Shown here piece after piece: positions 1-20,000 of a DNA stretch of 20,000 nt. Every line of letters begins with the position of its first letter. Within the stretch, counting starts at the first letter, position 1. The DNA comes from Asterionella formosa (lineage: Eukaryota): NCBI GenBank assembly GCA_002256025.1, contig NKIB01012388.1:60424-80423 (forward strand). The letters run 5' to 3'. The notes under the pieces were generated by a model. The model did not search any database. It had not been told where the DNA came from and worked only from the letters and a program-made list of their open reading frames with translations. Made by a program: the position numbers and the translations under genes.

Positions 1-1139
1 AATCTTGACGACCTTCTAGTCGATTCTTTGTCTTCTTCTTTGTAATAATGATTACATACCAATGCCTCTCCAAAAAGCTTGCGAAAACCGAGCATGCTAT
101 CAACCTTGTTCTCTTTGCAGAAGTGTTAAAATGCTAGCATGGCATTTAATTCTCTGACTGAAATGAGGAATTCAAATTCTATACATCTGCAACGCCGATT
201 ACTGGTACAGCCGCCACAAAAAAACGCTAGTCAAATATGATCACCCAAATTAACTATTTGGGTGGCCCAATATGACGAATTTAGCTACGTATATAATTTA
301 AGGGTATGACATCACATAAAAAAATATGATGCATCTTTCAATATCTATGAACGGAGTGAACTAAAATAGTTTCGACAAATTCCATAATTACTTTAGGAAC
401 TCACATAATTTTTGGGGCAAACTGATAATATATTCTGGCGATACGAAGAAAAATTTGTTCAGTTATAATCTATATTGGCTATACGCTACTTTTCTCTACA
501 ATTCACAACATTTCCATTCACAAATATTCTTCGCTCCGACTAGCATTAATTCTGTTCGTTCACTCCCATTTTATCTTTTCTTTGATCACATTAATACCTC
601 AAGGATATAATTTCAACATTGCATTTTCAGACACTTTTATGCAAAAATTGTATTCTTTCCTAATACTAGAGGTGGCCAATGAAAAATTCTGCAAGTAAAA
701 ATTATCATGCATATAGGATCAAGGGTATTGTACGCTAAGTGGCACAGGATTTTCGTATATACTATGATAAATTTTCGATCAAAACTATGATCAAGGTATC
801 CAATAACTATGATGATTTATTAATATTCTACCAACCTTGAATTATGACGAGAATGAGAAAATTATGATCACACAATGTATATCAACTGATCAACAACATT
901 TCTCATCAATATCATAAACCTTCTCATATTATTTTCACTTCTCGTGATTCCCAAATGTAAATTATTACTACAACGCATCCTTAAATCAGCTCAACTCTTT
1001 GCTATCATGTGAATTGTTTCATCGTAAATCTATCTTAAACATGATCGTAAATCTAATCACAAGCATCGTTCAAAATAGATTGAAATGGATCGTGATTTAA
1101 CTATCAAATTTAGCAATACTATCTATGATTCTACAGGCT

Positions 1140-1860
1140 AGTGACCCAACGTTTCTCTCTCTACTTGGCTCAATGTATATTGTTCCTATCCCGCCCTTTT
1201 CTTCCTCTATTCTGAATCTTGTGCCAAGCAGCGCTTCTGCTCTCTCCTTGCTATTAGTGTCATTCTGAACTCGCCGACTGTTCCATTGTTTGATTGGTTT
1301 TATTGTCCTTTGCAGTTACAGTAAAAATGAGAAGGAACGACTTGTTAGTTTGTCATTTTACACTGACACAACATCACGCCATTCCATTGTATCCTCGTGC
1401 TTCAGCCACTTAGTACTTCAAATCAAAGCAACAAATAAGTAAGTTTCAGGTCTTCAATGTTGTCGAATAAAACTTACCGATTCATTTTCGTTCGCTTAAC
1501 GTGGAGAATAGGCAAATGTGTCCGTCAGTTATGTTCCAACAGAAGTAAATAGGTCCAACGACAAGAACACTTACCAATTTTGTTTTCTTTTACATTGGTG
1601 CTCCCGAACAAGCAAAACGAGCTACTGAATCAACTGAGAAAAATGGAAATGTGCGTTTTGCTAACGATTTGTTGTTGTCCTGCCTCCCAATGATTGTCAT
1701 CCAAGTACCACATTGATGGCTTCATTACCTTAAACATACTCCATCCTTCGAAGGCCCAATGTGTCGAAGCCACAATGTTTTTCATTATTTCATAAACTTT
1801 CCTTTTAAAGTGCTTTACTACGATATTTCTTTTCATGAAGCAGGCATTGTTTGTTAACAT
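1140..1860 (-). pseudogene. Possible small multi-exon gene remnant, unknown product
   Basis: ORF 1630-1860 is followed on the minus strand by two GTAAGT donor-like sites (~1574, ~1477), a CTAAC branch-like site (~1348) and a purine-rich coding-like tail. Weak. Confidence 0.25.
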
Positions 1861-2344
1861 GACAGAACGATTTCAAATATATTTGCCATGTACATAGTTA
1901 TAAAATTTGTAAATATATAAATATATCAAGTGTCATACATATATAAATTCAAAGGCATTCTCAACATGGCACGTCTGGTACTGTTGAGATGATCATATTT
2001 GCAAATAGATAATTCGAATATATTCAATGCACCATATGTCCATTGCTTTCCACAACTTCGTGTACTGGTACTGAATTTTAGAAATTTGTTTGCATCAATA
2101 TTTTCTACATCCGTTGGAACTAATTATTTAGACCATTCAATTGGTGTACTAAGTCATAACCCATTTGTGTCATTATTTATATGCAAGGATTTTGGTAGCA
2201 AATTGTTAAAGCCCCTTTTTTGGGCGGGAGTTCTTCATGTGTACCGGTACATCATACGACAATAACATTTTATCATATATATACAGAGTACCAGTAGCAG
2301 GTAGGAAGTGATATACTGGGGGTACCAGGTAGTCACAGTACCAG

Positions 2345-2800
2345 GTAGTAAGCGAGCAATAGAACACCATATGTTCATGACTGTTGCTACTGCAGTGGGA
2401 CCACAGTAAATCATCATAGTTTTAGGATCGTATGATCATAAAATTGAAAAAGGATAGTCGGAGTAGTAAGCAAGCAACAGAACACCATGTGTCCATGACT
2501 GCTGCTACTGCAGCGGGACAGTAAATCATCATAGTTGTAGGATTGTATGATCATAAAATTGAAAAAGAATAGTTGGAGGAGTAAGCGAGCAATAGAACAC
2601 CATATGTTCATGACTGTTGCTACTGCAGCGGTACAGTAAATCATCCTACTTTCAGGATCATATGATTGTAAAACTGAAATAGGGTAGTCGGAGGCCGAGT
2701 AGTAAGCCAGCAACAGAACACCATATGTTCAGGACTGTTGCTACTACAGTGGGACAGTAAAGCATCATAGTTTCAGGATTGTATAATCATATATTCGAAA
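2345..2800. repeat. Tandem repeat, ~118 bp unit, ~4 copies
   Basis: The anchor AGAACACCAT occurs at 2361, 2479, 2594 and 2715 (periods 118, 115, 121), and the whole unit is conserved between copies. Confidence 0.95.
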
Positions 2801-3009
2801 ACAAGATATACTATTACTCAAACTCGGTTCTGATTTTGTATATGATAATGTAAATAGCACTGTTGATCCTATGGTGTCATATCTAGACAGCGTAAAATAT
2901 TATATGTAGTGGCTGATGATTCATTTAATTGTAGCTAGCAACACCTGATTTTAAAATCATCATCGAACTTTAAGTAAGACAACAAGGACAACAGTTATCT
3001 AGTAGTACA

Positions 3010-5440
3010 ATGTCTTCAAAAAACCATAAAGAGGTTCATGGAAACAAGCGACATGTAGCAAATACTGCCGGTATGGAACAAAGAAGCAAGTACCAAAATG
3101 AACTAACAAAGAAAAAGCGAAAAGGTGATTATCCAAAGGAACCCAATCGGCAACAGGGAGTTAGTGGGGGTACTACCCCCATCGTCGTTGGGGACACCAG
3201 CAGCTACTAGTACAAAGGAACCCGTAATTGATACTGAAAGCAATGATGACGTTTCTTTTTCAGTTGTTGATAAAATAAAAATGGCTCCTGTCGATGAAAT
3301 AATAACTCTCAGATGCAGATGGACAACATGGTACCATATCATAAATATCCTAATCGCACGGACCAACAAGTACATGAAAAACTGAGGGAAAAACTTGCCA
3401 AAGGATATGATCAATTGGTCAATGATCTCAGTCACTACAAAGGCCGTAATTCGGTTCCTGAGTATTGTGTCTCCCAATCCAGCTAATGGCAAATACGCAA
3501 CAGCAAACGAGTGGTGCCGTGTTATATCGCATAATCCTATTATGCCTGCACTAATAAATCATTATTTTGGTGGTGACTTAAAAGGATTATTTGGTGCAAA
3601 TCCATTTGAGGTTCTTCATCAATTACTACTTGGAATATTTAAGTACATTTTGGAATCATTGTACAAATATCGGACTTTCCCTGAAGAATGATCATGTTTT
3701 TTTAAAAGAAAATCATCAGATATTCCAGAGAATATCTCCGATTGTTAAACGTATCACTGAAACAACAGACTCTGCTTTTCTTGATCAAGAGCAACCGAAG
3801 AAACGGGCAAAGACCAAAAAGGACACGCACACCAGTTACCAAAAATATCTACAATGGCAAAAATCAAGTCCCAACACTTGTACCAGCACCAGAAATGTAT
3901 TTTCGAAACTATACTGTACTTCGAACAAAGTGCTAGACATATCAATAGTCATTTGGAAAGGCAGAGCGATCGTGATATTCCAACATTTTCATACAGATCT
4001 GGGATGACATCTTTGTCAAAAATGTCAGGGCAAGGCAAGAAATTCCCGGATTATGTCTATTACTATTTTTTCAATGGGTGGAATGATGGGTTCAGAGAAC
4101 ATGCACCTAGAAAAGGATTTCACATTGCTGTTATGATTATGTATATCTATCTATGACACTTTATTCATACCGCAGTATACATCAACATGTATTGATATTT
4201 GAGAGGAAAGGGTTAAGAGATTTATGTCAGTTAGTACTAAGATTTTGATTGGTCCTCCCCAACGGGAAAGGATATCTCAAATAAGTTTGCCTTACGAATG
4301 GCAAAATTGAATGGGATGAAACATTACCCTCATCTGATTAGGAAGTTCGCTCGGTTCTCCTCTTAATTTCTTTGGTGGATATTTGGAGTTTTTTTTAAAG
4401 ACAAATTAAAATGAGACCAAGTAGGCGTGTCAATGGAAAATTACATCGATTAAAGCATGACATTTTAACAAGATCATATGAAACAAGGCAGTTTTCCTTG
4501 GCACGAAATTTTTTTTGCAAGTGATACGTTACATACAGAAAAAAACAGAAGAAGATGAGTAAAGAACATATCAATGTAACTGAGGGTATTTCAACAGAAA
4601 TTCATTTCGAAGGAATGATTCCGGATACAAGGATGTTGCCAAGTACTAGTACCTCCCCTGATAATTTGGGAATATCGCCTACCAAGATCCATTCATCATC
4701 CCTTCCTCTTAAAGTTCAATTTTCTGCTTCATCATCAAATGGTCTATGGACTATGGCAGGTGTCCCAAATAAGATTGGGCATGTATCACGGAGTAAAGAT
4801 ACACCCTTGCTTGTCTCAATTGGTTCATCCTGATTTACCAAAGGGGGCCAACTACATAAAGAGCATTGCTAATTCAGCAATAGAAATAGCAAGAATAAAA
4901 AGTCTTGAAGATGGGGTTGGGCCTGGTGCTGTTTCCATTGTAAAGATTGACTTTTATTATCATGTTAAAATTGAAAGCAACATTTCCGGCCAAACTACTA
5001 TTTTCAGATGCCATGATCCGAAATGGAATAATGATTCAAATGCAGGAATCTCTGGTCGTGAATGGTTTGACTGGGTCTAAGTGAACTGAGATAAAGGAGA
5101 TGGATCAAGTTCCTACACAGTTCAGTTCCTGCAAAACTACTTCTTTGGGGAAATGTTATTCTCTCCAACACAACAACCATTCTCTTAGCGTGTATTCATT
5201 CCTTGAAAAGTTCAACTGAAATGAAAATTCATAAATGTATGTTTTTTGCAAGAGGAGACACCTTATGCAATGATACAACTGAATTGAGCGTTGTTGAATT
5301 TCATAACATACTTTCGGCAGCATTTGTTGTACCTGCTTTGAAACAACAGGAATCAAGGAAATCTCTGAAACCGCAAGATTTTGGAACAGATACGAAAAGA
5401 GAATTCTTATGTTGCCATGCATGCCTCCACATCATTTATG
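3010..5440 (+). pseudogene. Degraded Plavaka/CMC (EnSpm-related) DNA transposase, frameshifted and probably internally deleted
   Basis: Colinear motif fragments in different frames: FGGDLKGLFGANPFEVLHQLLLGIFKY (EVLH at 3608-3619, matching the D/ExLH..LG..K motif); RQSDRDIPTFSYRSGMTSLSKMSGQ (from 3959); KLNGMKHYPHLIRKF followed, after a frameshift, by GSPLNFFGGYLEFFLK (~4304-4400); FRCHDPKW...REWFDWV (to 5077); VPAKLLLWG (~5125); VVEFHNILSAAFVVP. Multiple stops and frameshifts. Family recognised from memory of Plavaka-type proteins. Confidence 0.75.
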
Positions 5441-7070
5441 GAAATTTTTTTTTGCCATTACTTTCTAGTTGCAATAGAGTTTCCAATACTTTCACAATTG
5501 TAAACGGTCCACATGACCATCCACTATCATCTTCTGGTTGAAATAACATGGAATCATGTTCAGTGGCCATACTGATCTGCAATGGTGCTTTGGTGCCAGT
5601 ATAGAAAGATTCCGATAAACCAATTTCTTCAGGTGTATGGTATTCTTGTGGAAGATAGCTATCCTGTATCGGTGATAAACAATTCCAATTGTGTGCAGCA
5701 CCCAGGGATGATTCAGTACTTATGGGCAAGGTGAAATACTTGATCATAATGTTCATCCAAACTTTCATCTTTTCCTGGATCATGGACTTGACATAATCCA
5801 TCATTTATAGCAAAAAGATTATGCACAAAAGGGTTGTTTTCCTCCTCATCTGATCTTTTGCAATAAACAATTAGCACATACAGTAGTTACTGTCATGATG
5901 AAGTGGATGACAATCACCTTGGTATAAATACTGTTTGTTATTACCCATTTCTGGTTCTCGTCTAGATCAAATATAACCTTTACATCAGTTGGATGAAGTT
6001 CATGAGTTATATAATTGATCATAGAGCAAGGTAATTTTTTCAAGGTCCCAATATGCAAGATCTTTAAAATCTGAAGATGATTTTTTGATACCTTTGACTC
6101 CATAAAACACAGAGGCGTAATTGCATATTTCTTGTGGGGTACGTGTGTACAAATCTTTCCACAATTTTAGTTGCCCATGAGTTTTTGGCAAACTCAAGGA
6201 AAATGCAGTTTGCTTTGGTATGATAACTCTACACATTTCACATGCTGACTCTTCACAAAAGTTGGCTAGCTGCCTTCGGGACTGTTCTCGATGATTTTAC
6301 AGAGAAATTTTTTTTCTTCCATGTATGATTTGGAAAAAGATTCAATTGTTTTCTTCAAACTTCATTCCTGACTCAGTGCATCAACTGCCTAAGCCAGCAT
6401 GAATCACATATCTGTCTGCATTGATCTTTTTGAATTCGAGGTCTTGATCTAGCGCAGACTTTTTCTTGAATATCTTTTCTTTTGAAAATGCAATAGTTTC
6501 TCTGCTTTCATGATGTTCATCTTGATGTTCTGGACGAATAGTGAGATATATTTTTGTTTTGCAACTTTTCAACCATTTCTACTTCGGAAGTGATGTCTGC
6601 CACATTTCCGCCGGTATTTTCATGCATCGCATGAGCTTGTTCATCAAATGAATGAGAATCACTGAGTTCTTCTTCAAGATCGGCGATGGCAGGAGAATGA
6701 ACACCTCCGACACTGGATGGAACTGTGACTCTGTAGGAATAGACGAGTCTTCATCCGTGAAGAACAACTGTTTGGGTTTCCTTGGCTCTTCAAAAGCAAT
6801 CTTTCCTTCTTTTCAATCTCTGCCACTATTGAATCGGGATACTTGATTCATTATTTATTCTGGAGTATTATGAATCTGTTCAAATTCATTTGTTGTTTGA
6901 GCGTATTCAAAGGAATCTTCGATTGATTTCATAAGAAGGTTCTTCGTCTTCTTTTTCGAAAACATAAAGACATGTCGTGTGAACGACGGAAGAAAGTCAC
7001 GTTTCTTGTTTGATTGATCCTTTCCATGAAATTCATGAAATCCATGAAATGCCATTTGGAAAGTTGTCAA
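5436..7070 (-). pseudogene. Degraded gene with a C-terminal Ulp1/SENP-like (peptidase C48, clan CE) cysteine protease domain
   Basis: ORF fragments 6855-7070, 6579-6767, 6381-6572, 6000-6236 and 5436-5804 all share one frame, suggesting a single ancestral ORF. The C-terminal FQPEDDSGWSCGPF (5502-5543) matches the Q-x(n)-CG-x-F oxyanion/catalytic Cys motif. Upstream frameshifted pieces (MINYITHEL..., VIVIHF, YVLIVY, FVHNLL) lie where the His and Asp strands are expected but are degenerate. Confidence 0.55.
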
Positions 7071-7137
7071 AGGGCCAGAAGATTATGATGTAAAACAGTG
7101 GAAGGGAAACGCGCAGCTTTTTGCGGCGCTTGTGGAG

Positions 7138-8256
7138 TTGCAACTGGTGTGACGGTAACTGAGTGTAGTAATTGTTGAACAGAGCACAGTGTAATATGCA
7201 TGTTCCGCCAGTGTAGTGTTTACGCAATACATATGCCGGTATATCTTATGGCTATGACAAGGAAAAACGACACAACGATGAACGTGATGGCTGGTTGTTG
7301 AGGATACCGGTATGTGATATGCATCAATCCATATCACAAATCATATTACAGTGATGTTCCTCTCCACGCACGCATCTGTATACTTAGATCATATTCACAG
7401 TATAATGCTATCATGTTAACTATTTATTTTTTCTGTAAACATTTAAAGTCGAATATAAATATTAAGTAACATTCTTTTATGATTAATCAACCTTTTTTCT
7501 ATGACAAGACCACTTGCGTCCATATTTTATCGCATTTCATTATCATTGTTCTACTTTAACATAATCATATTTTGATTAAAAAGATATCATAAACATTTTA
7601 AAAAATCATCATAGTTCTATGATCAATGTATCATAGCTATGTGATATACTTTATTCAATATTACGTATCATATTTTGGTGATGTATTGCAACTGGTGTTA
7701 TGGTTACCAAGTGTAGTAATTGTTGAACAGAGCACAGTGTAATATGCATGTTCCGCCAGCGTAGTGTTTACACAATACATATGCCGGTATATCTTATGGC
7801 TATGACAAGGAAAAACGACACAACGATGAACGTGATGGCTGGTTGTTGTGGATACCGGTATGTGGTATGCATCAATCCATATCACAAATCATATTATAGT
7901 GATGTACATATTTACGCATCCATATACTTAGATCCTATCCACCATATAATACTATCATATTAACTGTTGGCTTTTACTGTATACATTAAAAGTCGAATAT
8001 ATATATATATATATATATTAAGTAATATACTTCATGATTAATCAACCTTTTTTCTATGATGTACTGATAACACTTGCGTACATATTTTATCATATTTTAT
8101 TATCATTGTATTATTTTAACATTTTCATATTTTGATCAAAATTATATCATTAAAATAATAATAAAATCATAGTTCTATGATCAATGTCTATGATCAATGT
8201 ATCATAGCTATGTGATTTATTTTATTCAATATCAAGTATCATATTTTGGTGATGTA
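7138..8256. repeat. Direct tandem duplication, ~550-570 bp, 2 copies
   Basis: CAACTGGTGT occurs at 7141 and 7689. Both copies end GTATCATATTTTGGTGATGTA (7685 and 8256). The duplicated ORF translations MIWIDAYHIPVS... confirm the match. Confidence 0.95.
7997..8018. repeat. (AT)n microsatellite
   Basis: About 11 AT units, present only in the second copy of the 550 bp duplication. Confidence 0.9.
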
Positions 8257-8401
8257 TGCATCGATGTAACCCTATCGTGATATCACATTATCATCTTATC
8301 AATCATTCAATGTTGATTGGGAACTGTATTCTGCATCGTACTACGGAGTATGATATTATAACACGCACTTTAGTAGTAGCAACGTCGCTGCTGTAATGTA
8401 C

Positions 8402-8932
8402 ACAAGTCGACAGTGTACGTACATACATGCTAAGCAGGTTTGAGGCAACGGAAAGTGGTTCCAACGAGCAAATGACGATATGCATACCTTTTTCCAGCGG
8501 CAAACCGCAATGATGAAGGATACTTGTCCCTCTATTGATGAGGGTGACACGGACACCGACTTTTCCAGGAGCAAACAACAATGAAGAGACCCATTTGCGG
8601 CTCTATTGATGGTAACAAAGATGCGGACAAGTTCAAAAGCGAATACAAGAACAACATACCAATGAAAACAAGTCTACAGTGTGTGCACGCACTCGCTAAG
8701 CAGGTTTGAGGCAACAGACAGTTGCAACATGCAAATGACAATACGGATGTCAAATTATTCCTGCAGCAAACCACAATGGTAATGACGAAGGACATTTGTC
8801 CCTCTATTATTGATGATACAAATATCAGGCGGGTTGTCCATGAGCAAACAAAAATGAAGTGAGCCATTTGTTGCTCTATTGATGGTAACAAACATGCAGA
8901 CAAATTCAATAGTAAATACAAGTACAGTATCC
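8402..8932. repeat. Diverged tandem duplication, ~268 bp, 2 copies, with internal sub-repeats
   Basis: GCTAAGCAGGTTTGAGGCAAC occurs at ~8429 and ~8695. GCTCTATTGATGGTAACAAA occurs at ~8600 and ~8873. A GCAAAC..AATG...CTCTATT sub-motif appears twice per unit. Confidence 0.85.
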
Positions 8933-9759
8933 CAAATGCGGAAACAAGCGATATAAAAAAGAAATTGTAATCAGAATCATTCTATAGCCATAACTGTGTG
9001 GATAGCAGTCTGTTACATTTTCCTATCTCCTTCTATGCTGAATCTCAATTGTAGATGTAGTATCATGTGAGAACTGAAAATGTCAACAAGAAAAAGTAGA
9101 ATGTGTTCATTTACAAGTTGATTTGCGAGATTGTCATGTTGGTGGTTGACAGAATGGATTTACTATTTGCGCTGTGTGCGGAACCATTCCAAGTTCGAAT
9201 GATTTCTTCTATGTAAACTCTTAATTGAATGATTATGAACCTAGGTTCACTGCACATGATGATGATTAATCAAAGATATAATGATCACTTGACCCTCAAT
9301 TGAAGACGATATCGCAAACAATCATTCCACTTGTCATCGGTTGTTTTTCGTTGTTGTTGCAAAAATCGGAGTGATGACAGATGGAAATGACAAGCCAAAT
9401 TACATTACTTTAGCTGGTACATTATCCTACCAAGAAGTTCAAATACAGGAATCTAATAGGAACAATACATATAATAATTAAATATACATAGTCAAAAGGG
9501 TTACTATTGAAATTACAAGGGCATTTATCAAAACTATTAGATGATATAACGAAATATTATGATCAGATGATCACAATTCTATGATGCATCATGGAAATTT
9601 GATAGCTTTCATTTGTCACTGTTTTCCTTGCGCACAACTTCTCATATGGAAGTGCTGATTCAAGAACGGAATCACAAGTATTTGAATCATAGTTCTTGGC
9701 GGTCTACTAAAATCTCAAGTGGTGCTGGACAGGGTTTTTGACTGGACTTAGAACATTGT

Positions 9760-10483
9760 TTAGCAAACTGGTGGAGTTGGGACCACAGTCTCTTTGGCCT
9801 TTACAATGTTCTTTTTCTTGGAGATCAAAGTTTCTTGATCGATGTTCTTATGCCCCTCATTGTTAATGTTGGGCAAATGTGGTGAAGGTAGGACCGGAAC
9901 ATCAATTTTTCTCATGGAGTCATCCCTGTTGGAAATGCCAAAAGTAGGGTGTTGAAAAATGTGCATCCTTTTTGCACTCTCTTTCACACTCTTGTTCCTG
10001 GTGAAATGCGTCTTGCTATTCTTATTCGTCAAATCTTCAATTGACGATGGGTAAAACACTCATTTGCATACTGCAACCACCCCTGACGAAATTGGTGGTA
10101 GGCTGCATCAGCCTGATAGAGCAAGCTTGAAATAGCTAGTTGCTGTGTTAGTGACACCCTTGAAACTGCCTTGCGAGCTGAAACTTTGAGTGGTGATTGC
10201 TAGGCGTGAACCAAAAGTCTCCTGCTAGGTCAAATTGCTTGGAATCCGGTTCGGATACCTTTTTCCTTTTTATGGCAGCTGGTTTAGAGTCTGGTTTCGA
10301 TACTTTTTTGCTGGGACTTGCGGCTGGTTTGCAGTCCAATTCAGACTCGTTGTAAGGATTAGTTACAGGCCTTGACACTTTTTTGCCAAGTATAAAGGCA
10401 AGTTTAAGAAAGACTACTACAGTACTACGGCGCTGATCACAGAATCCAGTGGTACATAAGCTACAGGGACCTCCGGGTCCCAA
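9760..10483 (-). pseudogene. Coding-like remnant with KKVS.PDSKPAA low-complexity repeats; function unknown
   Basis: Adjacent minus-strand ORF pieces 10148-10483 and 9760-10059 contain repeated KKVS/DxKPAA peptides. No recognisable domain. Confidence 0.3.
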
Positions 10484-11315
10484 TAGTTAATAAATCCTAA
10501 AAACGACTGATTCACCATGACGAAAGGCGCTAGCCAAGCGGTCAACCAGGCAAAGAAAGAACAACTCATACAAGTGGGACAGCACCATCAGATGGTAATG
10601 AGATCCGACAGAAAGAGAATGCAGAAAAGGGAGGAGATGGAAAAGCAAACTAAGATTAATGCAGGAGCGGTGAAAACCAGCGATTGCATGGATGTTGATT
10701 CGGCGTTTTCCACAATACTACACATAGTTGGGGAATTCACAGCAATGGAATTAACACAACGCAAACTGAAGAAGAACCAGGCAATGACATTAACAAGAGA
10801 AAAGAGATGAAGAAGCTTAATAACTTTTTCGCTACACTGGGCGCTATTATAGTGCAAGAATAAGAAGAATACAAGAATTGCGATATGACAAACATTAACA
10901 AGAGTAAAGAAGAAGACAGAGAAATGAAGAAGTCACTGATGATGAAATTGCGCCTGCGCTGGATAGGCTTCTCAAAGCAATAATTTTTGTGATAATGACG
11001 ACAACGACAAAAAAATGAGTTGGAAGCCCTGGAATCACCAATTGTTATGGAGACCTCAAATTGAATCACCAGAATTGGGGCCAAACGGGAAATCTTTAAC
11101 CCAATCCACACTCGCCATCCAATTCTCCGGCTGACACAAAAAGTGCAGTCATAGAGAACTGAACCAAGAACAAAGCTGCCAGAATTATTTTTTTAAACTA
11201 CTTCTACACGATGAAGTGACTACCAACCAATTCCACCGCCCCGCCTTATATGGGCCATGGAGCGCAACGACAGCAACTCTAGAAATAGAAAAGTAAGAAT
11301 GCGCTATAAAAATGA

Positions 11316-12996
11316 TTAATTTATAGTTACAGGCATTGATGCAACATCTCGACTCCTGGCTGTTGACTTCGCAGCGTTGTAAGCAGCTGCCTTGGATGTG
11401 ACGTCATTGGTAGCATCTTCCTTGGGAGTAGCCTTGGCAGAAGGCTTGAGTGCGACAGAAGTCGCAGCAACAGTTCTTCGAGGAGCCTTCGCCCTCGTCT
11501 TTGCAGCTTTTTTGGAACACCCTTCTGTGACACTCGGGATTGTGTTGATACTGCTGTAACTATAGAAGCAGCCTTCTGTAAAGCTCCTCTCTTCGCACGC
11601 TTTCCTAACATATAAGGCAGGAGAAGGAGCTTCCAAGCGGGCATACTCTGACCTGATAGCTGCCTTCGCATTCATCACCTAGTCTGTCAGGCGATGAATG
11701 GACAGCATAAAAAGAAATCTGTGAATGAATAGTAAATGAATATGAATACAGCATATATACTAAACAAACATACCTTTTGCTTGCTTGTAGATGAAACTCT
11801 CAATTGGAAGAGCCATCGAGTAAACATAGGCTTGCTCTTCCAATTGATGATCAAGAAGATCATAATGAGGGACTGAAAGAAGACTCCCAGACAAATTTTT
11901 TTCCAACGCACGATGGGAAAGGTCTTGAAATTGGCTGGTTCTGTCATATCAGGTCCATAATTGTATGAATCAACTTCGCCATGCTCTTGTTCCTCTCATC
12001 ATGAAGAAGGCCTTCAAGAGAATAATTGATCATGTCCATCCAAGGAATAGGATTGCAGTGTATAAATCCCAAGGACTTATACCACTCAAATACAATGCCC
12101 AGCACCTGCGCGAAAACTGGTTGATGTTGGGAAGGACATCCTGAGTATGCACAGTTCCAGGCCTCCTCATTGATACACAGACAAGTAGCAGCTTGAATCA
12201 GCAGTTGACAAATGCCACGTTCGTTGTACTTGTGTAAATCATGGGTTGAGTTATAATGACTTGTCACTAGATAGTGAATACAAGCAATAGGAGTTGGAAA
12301 CTCTTTTTGCTCCACAACAACCAAAGCTACGGGCTTGAACTTCTTTTCCAAGTTCTCCCTCTCTTCAATGGTAATGACGAAGTTGCCATGAAGTTTCTTC
12401 TGTAGCTGGTTTGCGTATAATGCTTGGTTGGTAACGACTGAATTCCAATCATTACCAAAAGATTTGGATAAGAAATTCATAATCTCATTGATCTCCAAAG
12501 GGATATTAGAGGTGGCAAAGGTTTCAAGGGGAATTTGGGGGGTGATTCTAACTTTCCACTTGTACTGCTGGTGCCTATCATCAGCATTAGGGTCACGTAC
12601 ATTGATGTGACCAATGTACAATCTTCCTAGAGCCTCAAGACTTTTGATCACATGAGTGAAAAAAGCAAGAAAATAGAGCAGTGGATAATCCACGTGAGTC
12701 CTCTATCCCTCGTGGATCAGACTCATGTACTCAGGACTAAAGGGGACCAACCAATAGCGTTGAGGGAGAAAGGACTCATTCTTATTTGCGTTGATCAATC
12801 GAAGATAGAGTTTCTTCAATTGAGGATCTCTCTGGAAATCCTTGAACATCCCAATCTCAAGTAACTTGTCCACACTGCTGTCGCAAGTACTCTTAAAATG
12901 GTTAGCAGTGAAAGGAACACTGAAGTTTGTCTTGAAATGGTAATGAGGATACATAGTATCATCATATGATCCTCGAAAGGACAGAGAGCATTGCAC
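11316..12996 (-). pseudogene. Disrupted gene encoding a GNAT-fold acetyltransferase-like domain followed by a Lys/Ala-rich low-complexity tail
   Basis: ORFs 12703-12996 and 11944-12693 are in the same frame, separated by one TAG. They contain ACIHYLVT (beta4), YNERGICQLLIQ (motif A-like, RGIC at 12208-12219) and FEWYKSLGF (motif B-like, 12064-12090). A probable GTATGT...CTGACAG intron at 11773-11684 links to the 11316-11678 fragment. Confidence 0.6.
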
Positions 12997-13430
12997 ATCT
13001 TTTCTGGTCTGTTCTTCAGCGAGAAAGAAGTCTCGAAGAGAGAAAGGAAGGAGAGAATAGGAGAGTAACGCAATTGTCGCGAAAACGTGCGATTGGTAGA
13101 GAAAAATCGAGTCATGTGAGGACGGCTTGCAGTTTTACTGTGCCGGAAAACAGGCAGACAGCCAGTAATAGATGCAATATTTTTGTGTCCAAATCCGACC
13201 TGCGTCTAGTACCTAGATAAATAGTACAAGACAAATACTCAGAGTACTATAGACTATACAATACCTGGTACTTGTTTTTGCGCATGATTTACCTCAATCG
13301 CTGCTAGCTACTAGAAGTAGTAGTAGAACTTCTACTGTCATGCCATTCAGTAACTGTAGAATTTTGAAGGCGATGATGCTTGGTTACTAGTAGTGTAGCA
13401 ACTAACCGGTAAACCGGTAGACTACCAACA

Positions 13431-15270
13431 ATGGCCATTTTCAATATCAGCCAAAGGGAAAATGTCCACTTTTGCTAATAATGGTGTAACAAATCAGTGA
13501 TTGTTCGAGATCCAATTCCTATAAATCTCTGGTAGTAAGTTATTTCGGAAATCATGTAAAAACATATTCCGGAGCTGTCTCAGCCCGAGGCTTCCTCTGC
13601 ATCTGAAAATGAAAGCGACAATGCAGTCTCTAGTATTCCTGGAGCAGAGAACAGCAATTTCCCCTCCATTGATGAGGGTTAAAGTCTCATTTTATCAACT
13701 GATGGTAAGAAAAACATTTCGACTATTTTTGATATTAAGGATATTGAATAGAGTTTCTTCAATCTGAGTTCGAGAAAAGTAGAAAGGAGATTGAAGAGCT
13801 CCACGAAGTAACAGAGAAGCAAAGACTGCAACTTTCTGGTGGCATGGCATCGGAAGAGACAAGAAGCATTGGACCCGAAATGTTAGTCAATGGGTCAAAC
13901 TTGAACTATTCCCAAAAGTAAAGTTTATCACAGGTGATATTGACCTTGATGAAAGGGGGCCAACTAGTCTGGCACTCTCATTTCGTGCTCACTTTGCAAG
14001 GCTGATCATGGGAACTGATAAGGACTTGAAATCAATTTGGCAAACTGATAAGTATCTCGAGTCAATTTGGCAGACATATAAGAATGATATTAATAAAGTG
14101 ATGTCTGAAAAATAAATTCCATTGTTACCACTCTCAAACATGCCTTTGCTAGTAAGTAAACAACTTGACTTGGTATGCCTGATTTCTTCTTGACTTGTTA
14201 AACATACTCCTTGTTTACTAACAAATCATTCCATTCTTATCTACAAAATTCATGACTATTTCGTGATGGTATGCACATTCATCTGAATAGGTATACCATA
14301 TCCAACAGCCCTTGTGTTTCTATTCAGGAGCCAAGAATCATCCTTTCTGCGTCCTTCTAGTTGAATAATTTTATTCCAGGGTTGGGCGAAAGCTGTCTTG
14401 GAAACGACAGTGTGCTAAGAAGCATGTCAGTGACTTTGTAAGTGTTTCTGACGAGGTATAATTGTTGGGATGTCTGGTTGCATAAGGCAATGATGTACTA
14501 AGGTCATGAAGATGATGCTCCTGCACCAAAATACGTTTTTATCGTTACTGGAGGACAGGGAGAGAGATATTGGCGGGGCTGGGATGCAAAGGGATATACC
14601 AGGTTCAACATTCTGTATGACATAGTAGTTGTTCATCAAGGACAACTGCCATGAGCAGACAGTTGGAGATCAGCTTTAAGTCCAATCTTCTTGTTCTGGC
14701 TGGAGTTCCACAAGGTAAGTCACGTCGGGGAATAGAACAAAGTGGAATGTTTAATTGATGCTCATGGAAAATATTGCCTAACTGATGGACATTTTCATTG
14801 AAGTTATGCCAAGGCGGAATAACAGTGTGTCTGCCATTAGAGTTCGTAATGATCTAGTGGCCATTTCTCTTCCAGTTATCACAACTCCGGCATCTTCCAT
14901 CAGTGGATTGACTCCACAAGAAGTTATCTCAGGAAGAACTTCAGCAATAACAACTGGTAGTACTAAGAGTGCAATGAGTTCCAAGAGTGCAAATAGTTCG
15001 AACGTGATTATTCACTTTCCCCCAGACCAAGTCAAGGGTGCCATAGATTGGTACTTCCAAGAGATGAAGAAAAAGATGTATGTGGAGATGGGGATGAAGA
15101 AAACGAGTGAAATATAGAAGGCTTGTATTGACCAGAACATTGCACCCCCAGAACGTTTTGGAGACGAAATTAAAGAAGGGATGATGAATGATAAGAGCTA
15201 CATTAGAAAATTCGAGGAGGTTGCAGCAAAGGACAAGAGGAAATACAAAGTGGCAACAAAGCAAGATGAG
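13431..15270 (+). pseudogene. Degraded intron-containing gene of an uncharacterised family, probably a transposon accessory ORF
   Basis: Frame open at 13795-14115: WVKLELFPKVKFITGDIDL...IWQTYKNDINKVMSEK. Later pieces are SWKRQCAKKHVSDFVSVSDEV (SDE at 14447-14455) and APKY...RGWDAKGYTRFNILYDIV (GW at 14577-14582), then the Ser/Thr-rich ORF 14785-15117. Introns: GTAAGT at 14152 with TACTAAC at 14217 and an apparently mutated acceptor (~14246); GTAAGT at 14715 with CCTAAC at 14777 and AG at 14803. The start ATG at 13431 is tentative. Confidence 0.55.
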
Positions 15271-15271
15271 G

Positions 15272-16452
15272 TGACATCTCAATTTTGACTCACTACGGCG
15301 ACATGCATTGAATGATAAAATATGCATGCAACAGCTGTTCCTACACGAATTTAGGAATTCGATCTTTGACAGCTACTGGTACTCATCGTTTGTTTCTTTT
15401 TCTATTTTGTACTAGCTAGAGTTATCGATGTAGAATATTTGTAGCTGCTCTGAAATGGAGAAGGCCATTAAGGCACATCTCAATTTCGACTTACTTTGGC
15501 GGCATGTATTGAATGTTGAAATATGCAACAGCTGTCCCTTAACAAATTGAAGAATTCAATCGTTGACAGCTGCTCATCCTTTGATTCTTTCTCTATATTG
15601 TGATTGCTATAGATATTGCTTTGGACTATTGCTAGCTACTCCGAACCAGAGAAGGCCATTGCGGAACATCTCAATCTCGACTCACTACAGCGACATGCAT
15701 TGAATGTTAAAATATGCAACAGCTGATCCTAAACAATTTCAAGAATTCGATCTTTGATAACTACTCATCCTTTGCTTCTTTTTCTATGTTGTACTTGCCA
15801 GAGTTATCAATTTAGACTATTTGTAGCTACGTCAAAACGGAGGAGAAGGCCATTGAGGCACATCTCAATTCTGACTCACAACGGCGACATGCATTGAATG
15901 TTAAAATATGCATGCAACAGCTGTTCTAAACAAATTTACAAATTCAAGCTTTGACAGCTACTGGTACTCATAGTTTGCTTCTTTTTATACATTGTACTTG
16001 CTAGAGTTATCGCTGCAGACAAGTTGTAGCCGCTCCAAACCGGAGAAGGCCATTACAGCACATCTCAATTTTGACTATGTTAAAATATACAATAGCTGTT
16101 TCTAAACATTTTTAAGAACTCAATCGTTGAAAGCTGCTTATCCTTTGCTTCTTTCTCTATATTGTATTTGCTAGAGATATCGCTGAAGACAAGCTGTAGC
16201 AGCTCCGAACCGGCGAAGGCCATTGCAGCACATCTCAATTTCGACTAACTACGGCGACATGCATTGAATGTTAAAATATACAACAGCTGTTTCTAAACGA
16301 TTTTACGAATTCAATCGTTGACAGCTGCTCATCCTTTGCTTCTTTTTCTATATTGTAATTGCTAGAGATATCGCTGAAGACAAGTTGTAGCCACTCCGAA
16401 CCGGAGAAGGCCAGTGCGGCACATCTCAATTTCGACTCACAATGGCGACTTG
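15272..16452. repeat. Satellite-like tandem array, ~190 bp unit, 6 copies plus a partial seventh
   Basis: The anchor ACATCTCAAT occurs at 15274, 15475, 15666, 15860, 16060, 16230 and 16421 (periods 201, 191, 194, 200, 170, 191). Confidence 0.96.
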
Positions 16453-18670
16453 CAAGGCTCAACGTTTCTTTATTTCTAATCTGGCAGGGTACAGTAAACT
16501 CTACAATCAACAATGACTAAACAATGTGTCTACAACATTAAGTACTACTACTATGTGTGCTGAATTTTACTGTGTGAATCTTCCTCTTGCATGTGTTGTT
16601 CTTTGCCAGTTCAGATCAAAGAAATATGTTGGAGCGGAAAAAATAATAAGTGAATTGCAATTGGTGACTCTTTCGTTCATTAAATGGTGAAAGCAGCATA
16701 ATTTCGCTTTTATCCTATCGCGATGGCTAGTTGGACAACATATATTGTCACAAACACACAAAAGCATTGCTGTGATCACCTAATTATTCGAGAAGTGAAA
16801 TTAATTTTTGTTCAACCCAAATAAATTTCGGGAAAAGTAACATAATATTTTCGAAAAGTTCCATAAGTTTTTAGAAAAGTAGCATAAATATGTCACTTTA
16901 GACATAAATTCGAAAAAGTGCCAAAAACAGAAAGGCATCTTTGATGTTGATTACCCTTTCAAATCCTATCCGCTTTAAAGCTTGTTGAAATGGTCTTTAT
17001 TCCTTCCCAGAGGCTGGGTCTCTCTTCCATAGACTCTTATGTGCTCGTAGTACTACCTAGTACCAATTACTTTTTCTCTGCTGCTCTGCTTCTAGCCTTC
17101 CTCCTAGATAAACTGATTGACCTTGTCAAATAATACACTGTTTCCTCAATTGACAATCTAAACTCAAATTAAATTATAAGCTAAACGAAATGTTTCCTTT
17201 CCATGCATCTTTGCTTCCCACAAAGTTTTTTTAAGATTCTCTTCAAATTTCCATTAAACATTTCCATAGAAATCTTCAATCTTTGATCTCGTTAGACAGC
17301 TGATTGTTGTAGCAATGATGTATTCGACTCATTGGATTACAATCGAGTCCACAATCTTTGTGACTTGGGCTAATGTTCTTGACAAAGTACTTGAGTACGG
17401 GATTTACTGTACCAGGTACCGTTACCGCCTACAACTGGAGCAAATTTGTACCCTCGTTGTTTACATGCATGATCATCAGCGAGGACATGTCAAGAAAGCC
17501 AGCCTAACTTCATCCGGTAGGCATGGGACGAGTGATTGGGAGTGAGTCGAAACTGAATACCAGTGAGTGCGTCCTGGTACTACAGTACCGTACCGGTAAT
17601 TGATAAAAGTGTTTACCTGACCTTCTTCATGATACATACGGAGAGAAACAATTTTGGCTATCTTGGAAAGCGATCGTGGCTGGCGCATTCATCGCCTATC
17701 TAATACAAAGATAACCATTCATCTTTGTATTATATACCTGTATATATCATACAAATTACCAGTAGTAAAACGCTACGTATATACGTGTGTGAAACCAGCA
17801 GTCCGTACCTGGAAGATGTCTAGGGGTACCAGGTACCGGTGCCTTGTACCAGTACTCCGAGTTTCCTTCTAAAAGAGGCATTTGCATGCAACCGTCAATT
17901 ACATATCATGCATCATGGCCACTGTTTAACAGGAAAAAAGACCTGTTTACCTGGTATAACGTATCTTAAAATGAATATAAACTCCATGCATAGGTATGTA
18001 TATGAAAAAAATACACCAGCAAAGAAACAGTTTTCTTTCGCTCTACTGTGTGGTGCCTGTAACCTGGTTTGGTAGCTGCAAGTAGGTAACCGTGTACACC
18101 ACGTACTCACCTATTTAGAATTGTACCTTGTTCCGGGTAGGAGCACCAGTAGTCTACGTAGCACATCGCTCAAGATCTGGTAGCTGAGTACGTGTGTATC
18201 AGTTTCTCTTTAATATTCATTAATGAATAGCAGAGCAATAGAATTCACTTTTGTCGATCCCACAAAAGTATATGTCCGTTAGAGAGCCGGTATTAATAAA
18301 TTCGTTTCGACCGACCATTTGATTGCTAGTTAAGAAAGCGTTATTCAATGTATTCTTTCTTTAGGAATGCTATTGATTTACCGTCATTCCAAGTGAATAC
18401 ATATATGGTATGTCATTGGGCACTAACAGCTTTTGCGCAAACATACGGTGTACAAAAACGCTTGGATTTAGCGCCAATTTTGTGTCAAGATTTTTGGCGG
18501 CGGATTTTGACTTGACAGTAGTTTTTGTTCGCGGTATTTTGTACAACCAGATCTGCTCACTTTTCCACAAGTTGTGTTCCGACTCTTGCACCCGCCCTTC
18601 GACTTTTATCGTTTCTACCACTGCGTATAAACGGAGACGATCTAATCTAGTGAACAAAACTTAATTACAG

Positions 18671-18892: not shown

Positions 18893-20000
18893 ATGGGTGA
18901 CGAAATTGAACTTACCTTCGACGCTGCCAACGGAGCTACAGCCGTTATGCACCACGCTCCCGTCGAAATTCATGCCAATCACATTGACGGGAATGTGAAC
19001 CCTTTCAGCGCTCATGTCCCTGATGATGACGAAGAAGCCTCTGTCGGGGATGATGACATGGACCATACGTTGCCAATTGCGGATGAATACGGTAACCCTA
19101 TGCATTACCCTAACGAAGGAAAGGGCAAGTCGCTGGAATCCGGGGAGAAGAAAAAGGAGGCTTCTCGTTCTGTAATTGGGGCAGGTATTGAGTCTTTCAA
19201 GTACCTGTACTCGTGTGGCCTTTTGATCTTCTCTGTTGCCGTGGTCATGGCTGCTATCTTCACAAAGCAGACGGGAGGTACCGCAGACCGTGGCATTCCT
19301 CCTGTGGTTGCCTTCTTCCTCTTCTGGTTCCTCATCATCTGGCTCGCGATGATGGAGGGAGGACAGGGTGCTCTTGTCGGTCTTCAACCCATTGACAAAG
19401 CTCTCTATGCAGAATCCCATCCACGTGCTTTGAAAAACACTACCCTGGCCCATAAGGGAGACAACATGGAGCGATTCATTGTTGGGCGTCAATTTCTTGT
19501 TGTCCTCGTGGTTTTCCTTACGAATATGATGTCGTCACCGATCAAAGGTGCCAGTGTTTTTGGCATGTCCTCGGGTGCTTGCGATGTCTTTCTTGCTAAC
19601 GGTGTCGCCGTAATCTTGACTGTGATCATGATTGGTCAGTTGACTGCTCAGGTTAACGCAAGTAATTGCTTACTTGACTTCATCAACAACTATTTCATGT
19701 TGTTCACCACCTACGTCTCACTTGGCATTGAATTCTCCGGTCTCTTGCACTCGGTGTACCTTGTTCAGATCTTCTTCTCCAAGCTCACCGGAAAGCCAAT
19801 TGACTCTAATGAGCCACCCCGAAACGCCATGCAGAATCTGTTTTTCTGGGCCCGCGTCTTGCTGTCCCTCGCTGTTCTCGGATATGCCTTTGCTGTTACT
19901 CTTGGAGCGCTGTTTGCTGGAAAGACTACCATGTGGGACGGCATCCCATCGGCTGTCTCTGTCGTTGTCTTCTTCCTGCTCATGGCCTTTGTTGGAATGA
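18893..20000 (+). CDS. SIT: Silicon (silicic acid) transporter, SIT family; 5' part, runs off the window end
   Basis: Hand translation from the ATG at 18893 is open to 20000: MGDEIELTFD...FKYLYSCGLLIFSVAVVMAAIF...WLAMMEGGQGALVGLQPIDK...HPRALK...HKGDNMERFIVGRQFLVVLVVF...GQLTAQVNASNCLLDFINNYF...IEFSGLLHSVYL...SNEPPRN...FFWARV...TTMWDGIP...FFLLMAFVGM. The diagnostic EGxQ motif is at 19355-19366, GRQ at 19484-19492 and a CMLD-like CLLD at 19667-19678, among several hydrophobic TM segments. The ORF is probably absent from the supplied track because it has no stop in the window. Confidence 0.97.
   Translation, partial: MGDEIELTFDAANGATAVMHHAPVEIHANHIDGNVNPFSAHVPDDDEEASVGDDDMDHTLPIADEYGNPMHYPNEGKGKSLESGEKKKEASRSVIGAGIESFKYLYSCGLLIFSVAVVMAAIFTKQTGGTADRGIPPVVAFFLFWFLIIWLAMMEGGQGALVGLQPIDKALYAESHPRALKNTTLAHKGDNMERFIVGRQFLVVLVVFLTNMMSSPIKGASVFGMSSGACDVFLANGVAVILTVIMIGQLTAQVNASNCLLDFINNYFMLFTTYVSLGIEFSGLLHSVYLVQIFFSKLTGKPIDSNEPPRNAMQNLFFWARVLLSLAVLGYAFAVTLGALFAGKTTMWDGIPSAVSVVVFFLLMAFVGM

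What the first reader, a model, noticed from the sequence alone, without database searches (positions are those of the whole stretch)
3010..15270. Candidate giant diatom transposon carrying a Ulp1-like protease and a GNAT acetyltransferase as cargo
Seen in the sequence: transposase remnant (+), Ulp1-like remnant (-, tail-to-tail), GNAT-like remnant (-) and an FPKVKFI/SDE/GW gene (+), all similarly decayed and interspersed with tandem repeats over more than 12 kb. Established: Ulp1-like proteases are carried by some Mutator-like and CACTA DNA transposons, and GNAT enzymes include lysine acetyltransferases. Inference: these genes form one multi-gene element whose deSUMOylase plus acetyltransferase cargo could modify chromatin and counter silencing. 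I do not know of this combination being described for diatom Plavaka/CMC elements.
Basis: partly seen in the sequence, partly recalled or inferred. Interest (0 to 1): 0.8.

Follow-up and report, generated by a model that had tools for sequence, protein, structure and literature searches.

The report
Two nested diatom Plavaka transposons
This stretch of a diatom genome is not one giant transposon but one broken jumping gene inserted inside another: the inner one carries a possible SUMO-protease gene, the outer one a probable acetyltransferase gene that may help it escape silencing.

Summary
The four genes are real but do not form one element. The window holds two abundant, unrelated-at-DNA-level Plavaka (CMCT) DNA transposons, one nested in the other. 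E1 (688-9615; family ends CGTCTG..CAGACG, 2-bp target duplication in 5 of 6 end pairs checked) carries a Plavaka transposase, an unknown gene and the Ulp1-like gene. E2 (184-16946; ends CATCT..AGATG) carries the GNAT-like and FPKVKFI genes plus its own Plavaka transposase, deleted here but intact (955-codon frame) in a 12.9-kb metagenome contig with no E1 sequence. None of 28 E1-selected stretches holds the GNAT or FPKVKFI gene. GNAT is supported by a language-model search (0.95), motifs and purifying selection on shared variants (omega about 0.2), not by Pfam or a fold. The C48 call rests on motifs only; profile tests failed. The joint 'deSUMOylase plus acetyltransferase cargo' is therefore not supported. 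What remains is a GNAT-bearing Plavaka element, a variant of the accessory-gene Plavakas of fungi and red algae; anti-silencing is inferred. This scan already noted both families on other pieces of this genome.

The parts
184..607 (+). Left end of outer element E2 (terminal repeat CATCT...; PlavakaB-like)
   Evidence: 40 of 40 scored matches cover about 180-610, 476 candidates; matches L164:105-524 at 92%
688..9615 (+). Inner element E1, Plavaka family with ends CGTCTG..CAGACG; this copy lacks the outer 2 bases on the left and 6 on the right
   Evidence: homology to other copies starts at 688 and stops at 9615 with unrelated flanks; 531 exact matches to the end pattern, 0 in the reversed control
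2345..2791 (.). 115-bp tandem array, part of E1
   Evidence: also in E1 copies C11255, C13386
3010..3457 (+). 5' piece of E1's unknown upstream gene (not transposase)
   Evidence: consensus of this region continues into a separate gene before the transposase
3457..5445 (+). 3' half of the E1 Plavaka transposase; first two catalytic Asp and the C(2)C motif lost in a ~2.9-kb deletion at 3457
   Evidence: sister-copy frames hit PF18759 at 36.1 and 32.9 bits, cut-off 26.3
5441..6960 (-). E1 Ulp1/C48-like gene remnant (motif-level call); its 3' end lost in a ~0.75-kb deletion at 5445
   Evidence: His, Asp and Gln..Cys motifs in C48 order in the consensus and in P0071; profile tests negative
7138..8257 (.). 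548-bp tandem duplication within E1, single in the other E1 copies aligned
   Evidence: D3
9613..11683 (-). Low-complexity Lys/Ser/Ala/Pro-rich 3' part of the E2 GNAT-like gene, cut off at the E1 junction and interrupted by the third repeat
   Evidence: matches L164:7154-8233 and on; reading frames in L164 and L005
10371..11323 (.). Third, unrelated ~950-bp repeat with an AT-rich tail and an 11-bp target duplication (non-LTR-like)
   Evidence: 269 candidates, 44 matches listed; empty site in L164; duplications at three other copies
11684..11773 (-). Predicted GT-AG intron of the GNAT-like gene (82 nt in L164); splicing not shown
   Evidence: sequence of L164; no joint across it in the contigs laid
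11774..13150 (-). E2 GNAT-like exon (acetyl-CoA motif A and motif B in order), frameshifted here
   Evidence: ESM Atlas 0.95, 10 of 10 best family hits GNAT; open in L164 (594 codons) and P0001
13452..15270 (+). E2 FPKVKFI/SDE/GW gene, three predicted exons, no family match; possibly the second, DNA-binding protein of the element (inference)
   Evidence: no Pfam, NCBIfam or PHROG match at E<0.05
15274..16454 (.). 191-bp subterminal tandem array of E2
   Evidence: present in E2 copies
16933..16946 (+). Right terminal repeat of E2 (...AGATG in the family; one change here)
   Evidence: 323 exact matches to the E2 end pattern, 0 in the control

Best explanation
A dead, nested insertion of two different Plavaka cut-and-paste transposons. 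Shown: E1 (about 12 kb when whole) = unknown gene (+), Plavaka transposase (+), Ulp1-like gene (-), ends CGTCTG..CAGACG, 2-bp target duplication. E2 (about 13.5 kb when whole) = own Plavaka transposase (+), GNAT-like gene with a long low-complexity tail (-), FPKVKFI gene (+), 191-bp array, ends CATCT..AGATG. Inferred history: E1 jumped into an E2 copy; a deletion at the junction removed about 6.6 kb of E2 (its whole transposase) and brought the Ulp1-like and GNAT-like genes into one run; further deletions and a third repeat followed. Inferred function: each element is mobilised by its own DDE transposase; the E2 GNAT is a working accessory gene of the active lineage, most likely a lysine acetyltransferase that helps the element stay expressed (chromatin or self-acetylation), by analogy with chromatin-enzyme cargo of fungal and red-algal Plavakas. 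Confidence is for the two-element anatomy; the acetyltransferase-against-silencing step alone is about 0.3.
For: Separate termini with unrelated flanks. Intact E2 in L164 with a 955-codon transposase frame (PF18759 51.1 bits), GNAT and FPKVKFI genes and no match to the E1 consensus core. E1 and E2 transposases only 24-27% identical. GNAT or FPKVKFI sequence in 0 of 28 E1-selected stretches of 5 kb or more; E2 transposase sequence beside GNAT/FPKVKFI in 7 of 14 other E2 loci. 1 of 40 E1 ends taken from the top of the contig-ordered list is flanked by E2. Where E1 lies in E2, the points differ: about 627, 5500, 8417 and 11967 on L164, in both orientations. Shared variants are mostly synonymous in the GNAT core (8 S: 6 N, omega 0.22, Fisher p 0.005) as in the E2 transposase (8:3, omega 0.11), while private variants are neutral (omega 1.07, 1.16).
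Against: E1 sequence lies in or within 1 kb of E2 in 7 of 14 other GNAT/FPKVKFI loci, more than a uniform spread would give, and in C13413 and C12547 in the same orientation as here. E2's target duplication was not recovered: 0 of 3 end pairs match exactly, so that 184 and 16946 belong to one copy is inferred. Only 10 of the 28 E1 stretches reach E1's right end. GNAT has no Pfam hit, no significant score against a host-GNAT profile (2.9 bits, E 1.8) and no relative under 76% identity. Shared-variant counts are small.
Confidence: 0.92

Rival explanations
1. One giant element carries transposase, Ulp1-like protease, GNAT and the FPKVKFI gene together.
For: All four lie in one run between E2's two ends in this window; Ulp1-like, GNAT and FPKVKFI occur in the same order in C13413/C9454.
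Against: Internal E1 termini at 688 and 9615; intact E2 without E1; 0 of 28 E1 stretches with GNAT; in C13413 the junction is at another base and E2's own transposase remnant lies between; copy numbers differ several-fold.
Confidence: 0.03
2. The E1-in-E2 composite arose by nesting but then moved as a unit on E2's ends, or E1 prefers E2 as a target, so the two cargoes travel together more than by chance.
For: E1 in or beside E2 in 7 of 14 other E2 loci; same orientation in two of them.
Against: Junctions differ in every locus mapped; the window's E1 and GNAT parts are no closer to C13413 (84.2%, 83.6%) than to other copies; 1 of 40 E1 ends lies in E2; repeats cluster anyway (established knowledge) and long old copies were chosen.
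Confidence: 0.1
3. The E2 gene is a GNAT-fold protein without a chromatin role (acetylates a small molecule or the element's own proteins, or is catalytically dead), and the E1 gene is not an active C48 protease.
For: Nearest language-model hits are generic viral and bacterial GNATs, not histone acetyltransferases; no bromodomain or other chromatin reader found; C48 profile tests negative; selection on the C48-like region is weaker (omega 0.47, p 0.015).
Against: Both genes show some purifying selection on shared variants; the Gln and the Trp-Ser-Cys-Gly motif persist in relatives down to about 35% identity; Plavaka cargo elsewhere is chromatin-directed (passages). This rival concerns function only and is compatible with the two-element anatomy.
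Confidence: 0.45

Closest known systems
PlavakaA and PlavakaB DNA transposons of Agaricomycotina (CMCT clade; PMC12730594, passages read)
   Same: PF18759 transposase with C(2)C and H(3-4)H between the second Asp and the Glu; E1 has a 2-bp target duplication and ends one base off PlavakaA's TGT..ACA; E2's ends are one base off PlavakaB's CATCA..TGATG; accessory genes carried.
   Different: Host is a diatom; cargo is GNAT-like and Ulp1-like, not TET/JBP; E1 ends CGT..ACG; placement in A or B rests on termini, no tree was built.
Giant Plavaka elements of red algae with PAG1-3 (bioRxiv 10.1101/2025.02.11.637652, passages read)
   Same: Large (17-19 kb there, about 12-13.5 kb here), multi-gene, tandem arrays next to an accessory gene, mostly degenerate copies, cargo proposed to modify chromatin or DNA.
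   Different: PAG2 is an adenine methylase/SET protein and PAG3 a ParB/2OG oxygenase; no SET or methylase Pfam match in E1 or E2 frames; a GNAT is not among the cargo in the passages read.
Ulp1-carrying Mutator elements (Kaonashi/VANDAL; review PMC13317346, passages read)
   Same: A DNA transposon carrying a candidate Ulp1/C48 domain as accessory gene; anti-silencing proposed.
   Different: Different superfamily; those domains are recognisable Ulp1, whereas the E1 domain does not score against PF02902.

Membership tests
Plavaka transposons (CMCT) | PF18759 transposase domain | tested here: met
   E1 sister copies 36.1 and 32.9 bits; E2 intact frame 51.1 bits; cut-off 26.3. The window's own fragments do not hit.
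Plavaka transposons (CMCT) | D-D-E triad with C(2)C and H(3-4)H between second D and E | tested here: met
   Read in the E1 consensus and in stop-free E2 copies L105, L111, L114, L164; residues assigned by motif, definition from PMC12730594.
PlavakaA | 2-bp target site duplication | tested here: met
   E1: matching dinucleotides in C12322, C522, C2077, C899 and across C704/C13386; C949 does not match (both ends lie inside other E1 sequence): 5 of 6.
PlavakaA | Termini TGT..ACA | tested here: not met
   E1 termini begin CG in 27 of 40 ends, TG in 7, CA in 3, other 3: CGT..ACG, a one-base variant.
PlavakaB | Termini CATCA..TGATG | tested here: not met
   E2 termini are CATCT..AGATG: four of five bases agree.
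PlavakaB | 2- or 3-bp target site duplication | tested here: inconclusive
   0 of 3 old end pairs match exactly (TA/TT, TC/TT, AA/TA); TA precedes 11 of 18 distinct left ends.
PlavakaA / PlavakaB | Position in the transposase phylogeny | not tested
   No reference Plavaka sequences were fetched; no tree built.
GNAT acetyltransferases (PF00583 clan) | Profile match | tested here: not met
   No Pfam or NCBIfam hit; not among 40 PF00583 matches in the genome; host-GNAT profile 2.9 bits, above all 500 shuffles but E 1.8.
GNAT acetyltransferases (PF00583 clan) | Motif A (acetyl-CoA loop) then motif B | tested here: met
   Both aligned in order by the host-GNAT profile; language-model neighbours score 0.95, 10 of 10 in the family or clan, 144 of 256 features shared.
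GNAT acetyltransferases (PF00583 clan) | GNAT fold | tested here: inconclusive
   Single-sequence model pLDDT 37; fold searches not usable.
GNAT acetyltransferases (PF00583 clan) | Acetyl transfer to lysine or histones | not testable with these tools
   needs an assay
Ulp1/C48 peptidases (PF02902) | Profile match | tested here: not met
   No Pfam hit; the 4 PF02902 matches in the genome are other loci; hhalign against them probability 3.7%; no PDB sequence match; Atlas lead 0.82 only.
Ulp1/C48 peptidases (PF02902) | His-Asp-Gln-Cys catalytic motifs in order | tested here: inconclusive
   Candidates present in order in P0071, matched by eye to the host Ulp1 alignment; only the Gln..Cys stretch is aligned by programs, and 1 of 500 shuffles scored higher.
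Ulp1/C48 peptidases (PF02902) | Clan CE fold | tested here: inconclusive
   Model pLDDT 31, not searched.

The most novel reading that the evidence does not exclude
E2 is a recently active diatom DNA transposon that encodes its own histone/lysine acetyltransferase (an orphan GNAT with a long basic low-complexity tail) and uses it, perhaps targeted through the FPKVKFI protein and the 191-bp array, to keep its copies out of silenced chromatin. No GNAT cargo of a eukaryotic DNA transposon turned up in the paper searches made here.
Probability: 0.3. Interest if true: 0.7.

Novelty: new variant of a known kind. Interest (0 to 1): 0.4.

Why it matters
The headline combination is an accident of nesting and should not be pursued as such. 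The useful remainder is E2: an intact, testable 13-kb Plavaka element whose GNAT-like gene has been under purifying selection. If it acetylates histones it would add acetylation to the known transposon counter-silencing tools (TET/JBP, SET, VANC) and extend accessory-gene Plavakas to diatoms. The termini and target duplication found for E1 (CGT..ACG, 2 bp) also widen the described Plavaka end motifs.

Tried and rejected
Pfam on 20 window fragments: only the silicon transporter hit. Homolog searches: GNAT, longer proteins none, near length 6 hits all 76-91% identical; FPKVKFI middle exon, longer proteins only, none; C48-like region 64 hits among cluster representatives, all short unnamed fragments of at most 184 aa. 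IMG/VR: no GNAT relative. PDB sequence searches: nothing meaningful. Both AlphaFold jobs failed for lack of alignment depth (pLDDT 31 and 37); Foldseek gave no E<=0.001 match (several GNATs at E about 0.1 among unrelated folds) and VIA-align's best rows (Z 7.4, T-fold) come from an unreliable model, so neither counts for or against. RNA: contigs of three RNA-library runs and one run of unrecorded kind cover E2, X1 in all 30 bins, but no joint skips the predicted introns; DNA carry-over is as likely, so expression is not shown. Rejected: 'CG' as E1's target duplication (filled versus empty sites place CG inside the terminus); a PHD-like Cys-rich domain after the GNAT core (probably the off-frame reading of a low-complexity exon past the intron); window and C13413 as duplicates of one composite. 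The tail of the GNAT gene shows no purifying signal (2 S: 9 N). Paper searches: plavaka+transposase 13 listed; diatom+transposon+Ulp1 1; DNA transposon+GNAT+acetyltransferase+accessory gene 1, bacterial; diatom+EnSpm+CACTA+transposable elements 0; 3; 3; plavaka+diatom 2 listed, neither on diatom Plavakas by title and abstract start; 20 of 36 listed, none relevant by title but the red-algal preprint. The library lacks most subscription papers and Repbase; supplements (including the red-algal TE table and the fungal Plavaka sequences) were not read.
Full report
Setting. The window is G000:C12388:60424-80423. A silicon transporter gene starts at 18893 (PF03842), so the host is a diatom.

Two modules, not one. 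Searches of the own genome gave 644 and 436 first-look candidates for the transposase and Ulp1-like stretches but 75 and 103 for the GNAT-like and FPKVKFI stretches (only 40 candidates are scored each time). Long stretches around copies aligned to the window in two blocks: 688-9615, and 184-607 plus 9613-16946. Of 29 stretches chosen for the first block, the 28 of 5 kb or more hold no GNAT or FPKVKFI sequence; 10 of them include the block's right end (L082 was under the size limit of that tally).

Element E1. Homology starts at 688 and ends at 9615 with unrelated flanks in other copies. The end pattern has 531 exact matches and none in the reversed control. Of 40 ends taken from the top of the contig-ordered list, 27 are preceded by CG, 7 by TG, 3 by CA; filled and empty sites place this CG inside the terminus, giving CGTCTG..CAGACG with a 2-bp duplication outside it in C12322, C522, C2077, C899 and across C704/C13386, and not in C949, whose two ends lie inside other E1 sequence. 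The consensus encodes an unknown gene, a transposase and a minus-strand gene. Frames from sister copies pass the Plavaka cut-off (36.1 and 32.9 bits), and the D, D, C(2)C, H(3)H, E motifs given for this clade in PMC12730594 (passages) are readable. The window copy has lost about 2.9 kb at 3457, including the first two Asp, and about 0.75 kb at 5445: it is dead, and 3010-3457 belongs to the upstream gene.

Element E2. Its ends are CATCT..AGATG (323 exact pattern matches, control 0). The consensus of genome copies revealed a second Plavaka transposase, absent from the window. A scan of metagenome contigs with it returned 4 loci; L164 (12,916 bp) runs from the left terminus through a 955-codon transposase frame (PF18759 51.1 bits), the GNAT-like gene and the FPKVKFI gene into the tandem array, with no match to the E1 consensus core. 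Short contigs of the own genome match L164 at up to 99.9%, so the family is young in part. The two transposases share only 24-27% identity over two segments. In the window L164 positions 525-7153 are missing and E1 stands in their place. E2's target duplication was not recovered (0 of 3 old pairs exact).

Results against this reading. E1 sequence lies in or within 1 kb of E2 in 7 of 14 other GNAT/FPKVKFI loci (C9454 counted with its near-duplicate C13413), twice in the window's orientation. But the insertion points map to about 627, 5500, 8417 and 11967 on L164, in both orientations, three others lie outside or apart, and the window is no closer to C13413 than to other copies; only 1 of 40 E1 ends is flanked by E2. 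Repeated independent nesting fits best; a mild target bias is not excluded.

The cargo calls. GNAT: language-model neighbours score 0.95 and all ten best family hits are GNAT; motif A and motif B are aligned in order by a profile of 20 host GNATs, above all 500 shuffles but not significantly; Pfam, NCBIfam and PHROGs give nothing; the fold failed; relatives found are all 76% identical or more. An 82-nt GT-AG intron in L164 would join the GNAT exon to a long Lys/Ser/Ala/Pro-rich tail; the frameshift in that tail in L164 is absent from L005 and from contigs of runs X1 and X2. I put the GNAT fold at about 0.85. Ulp1/C48: His, Asp and Gln..Cys motifs fall in the right order (motif order checked against host Ulp1 genes) and the Gln..Trp-Ser-Cys-Gly stretch persists in distant fragments, but every profile test was negative and the Atlas gave only a 0.82 lead; about 0.6. 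The FPKVKFI gene has no family match; a role as the second, DNA-binding protein that CACTA-type elements carry (recalled) is an inference.

Selection. Among 20-29 copies, private changes are neutral in most regions (omega 1.07 GNAT core, 1.16 E2 transposase, 1.17 C48-like), whereas changes shared by three or more copies, CpG-type transitions excluded, are enriched for synonymous ones: E2 transposase 8 S: 3 N, GNAT core 8:6 (p 0.005), FPKVKFI exon 1 6:4 (p 0.008), C48-like 16:26 (p 0.015); the GNAT tail (2:9) and FPKVKFI exon 3 (1:4) show no such signal. The counts are small, but the cargo genes appear to have been functional in the source lineages. CpG sites in the window's E2 part have changed about 3.7 times as often per base as other C/G sites (28 of 89 CpG; 61 of 1427 others), consistent with methylation of these copies. 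Expression was not shown.

Mechanism. Shown: two terminal-repeat elements, each with a DDE transposase, one nested in the other and then eroded. Inferred: the E2 GNAT acetylates lysines, in chromatin or on the element's own proteins, to favour expression (about 0.3 for a histone-directed, anti-silencing role). There is no ground for joint action of the protease and the acetyltransferase beyond co-occurrence in one genome.

Comparison. Fungal Plavakas carry TET/JBP genes and fall into A and B types by termini (PMC12730594, passages); red-algal giant Plavakas carry SET/methylase and oxygenase genes beside tandem arrays (bioRxiv 10.1101/2025.02.11.637652, passages); Ulp1 cargo is known from Mutator elements (PMC13317346, passages). 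PMC5751038 (two passages) lists C48 protease as an accessory domain of DNA transposons. No paper on diatom Plavakas or on a GNAT cargo appeared (listings only); Repbase, subscription papers and supplements were not seen. Earlier notes of this scan describe both families separately on other pieces of this genome; they are unchecked and were read after my anatomy was worked out.

Verdict. Observation partly confirmed, single-element interpretation not supported. New variant of a known kind, interest 0.4, carried by the intact GNAT-bearing E2 family.

Noticed in passing
window 10371-11323: A ~950-bp repeat family (269 candidates) with an AT-rich 3' tail, no terminal inverted repeat and target duplications of about 9-14 bp; looks like a non-LTR (SINE-like) element.
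   Followed up: partly
window 18893-20000: Silicon transporter gene (PF03842), about 1.9 kb downstream of the nested transposons; a myosin-like gene lies upstream of the window (L050:1568-4915, named from the sequence by recall).
   Followed up: no
G000:C7262 (L070) and C8526 (L045); C1439 (L073): Gene-less E2 derivatives: ends plus long ~190-bp tandem arrays (7.5 and 4.8 kb) and a ~1-kb miniature; the left-end family has 476 candidates against 75 for the GNAT.
   Followed up: partly
L100, L117, L118, L119: Further Plavaka families in this genome, only 68-77% identical to E1 or E2 in short stretches, some with long open frames; their cargo was not examined.
   Followed up: no
window 620-660 and 16983-17257: Short pieces of other repeats: one between E2's left end and E1, one just outside E2's right end (also found inside an E2 copy in C10963).
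   Followed up: no
E2 loci C13413, C12547, C14808, C13386, C1063, C2873, C14085: E1 sequence lies in or next to E2 in 7 of 14 loci, at different points; clustering or a mild target preference, untested against other repeats.
   Followed up: partly
P0052, P0056, P0067, P0026, P0070: Diverged fragments (33-54% identical) of the C48-like protein, showing at least one related element family elsewhere; useful seeds for a deeper alignment.
   Followed up: partly
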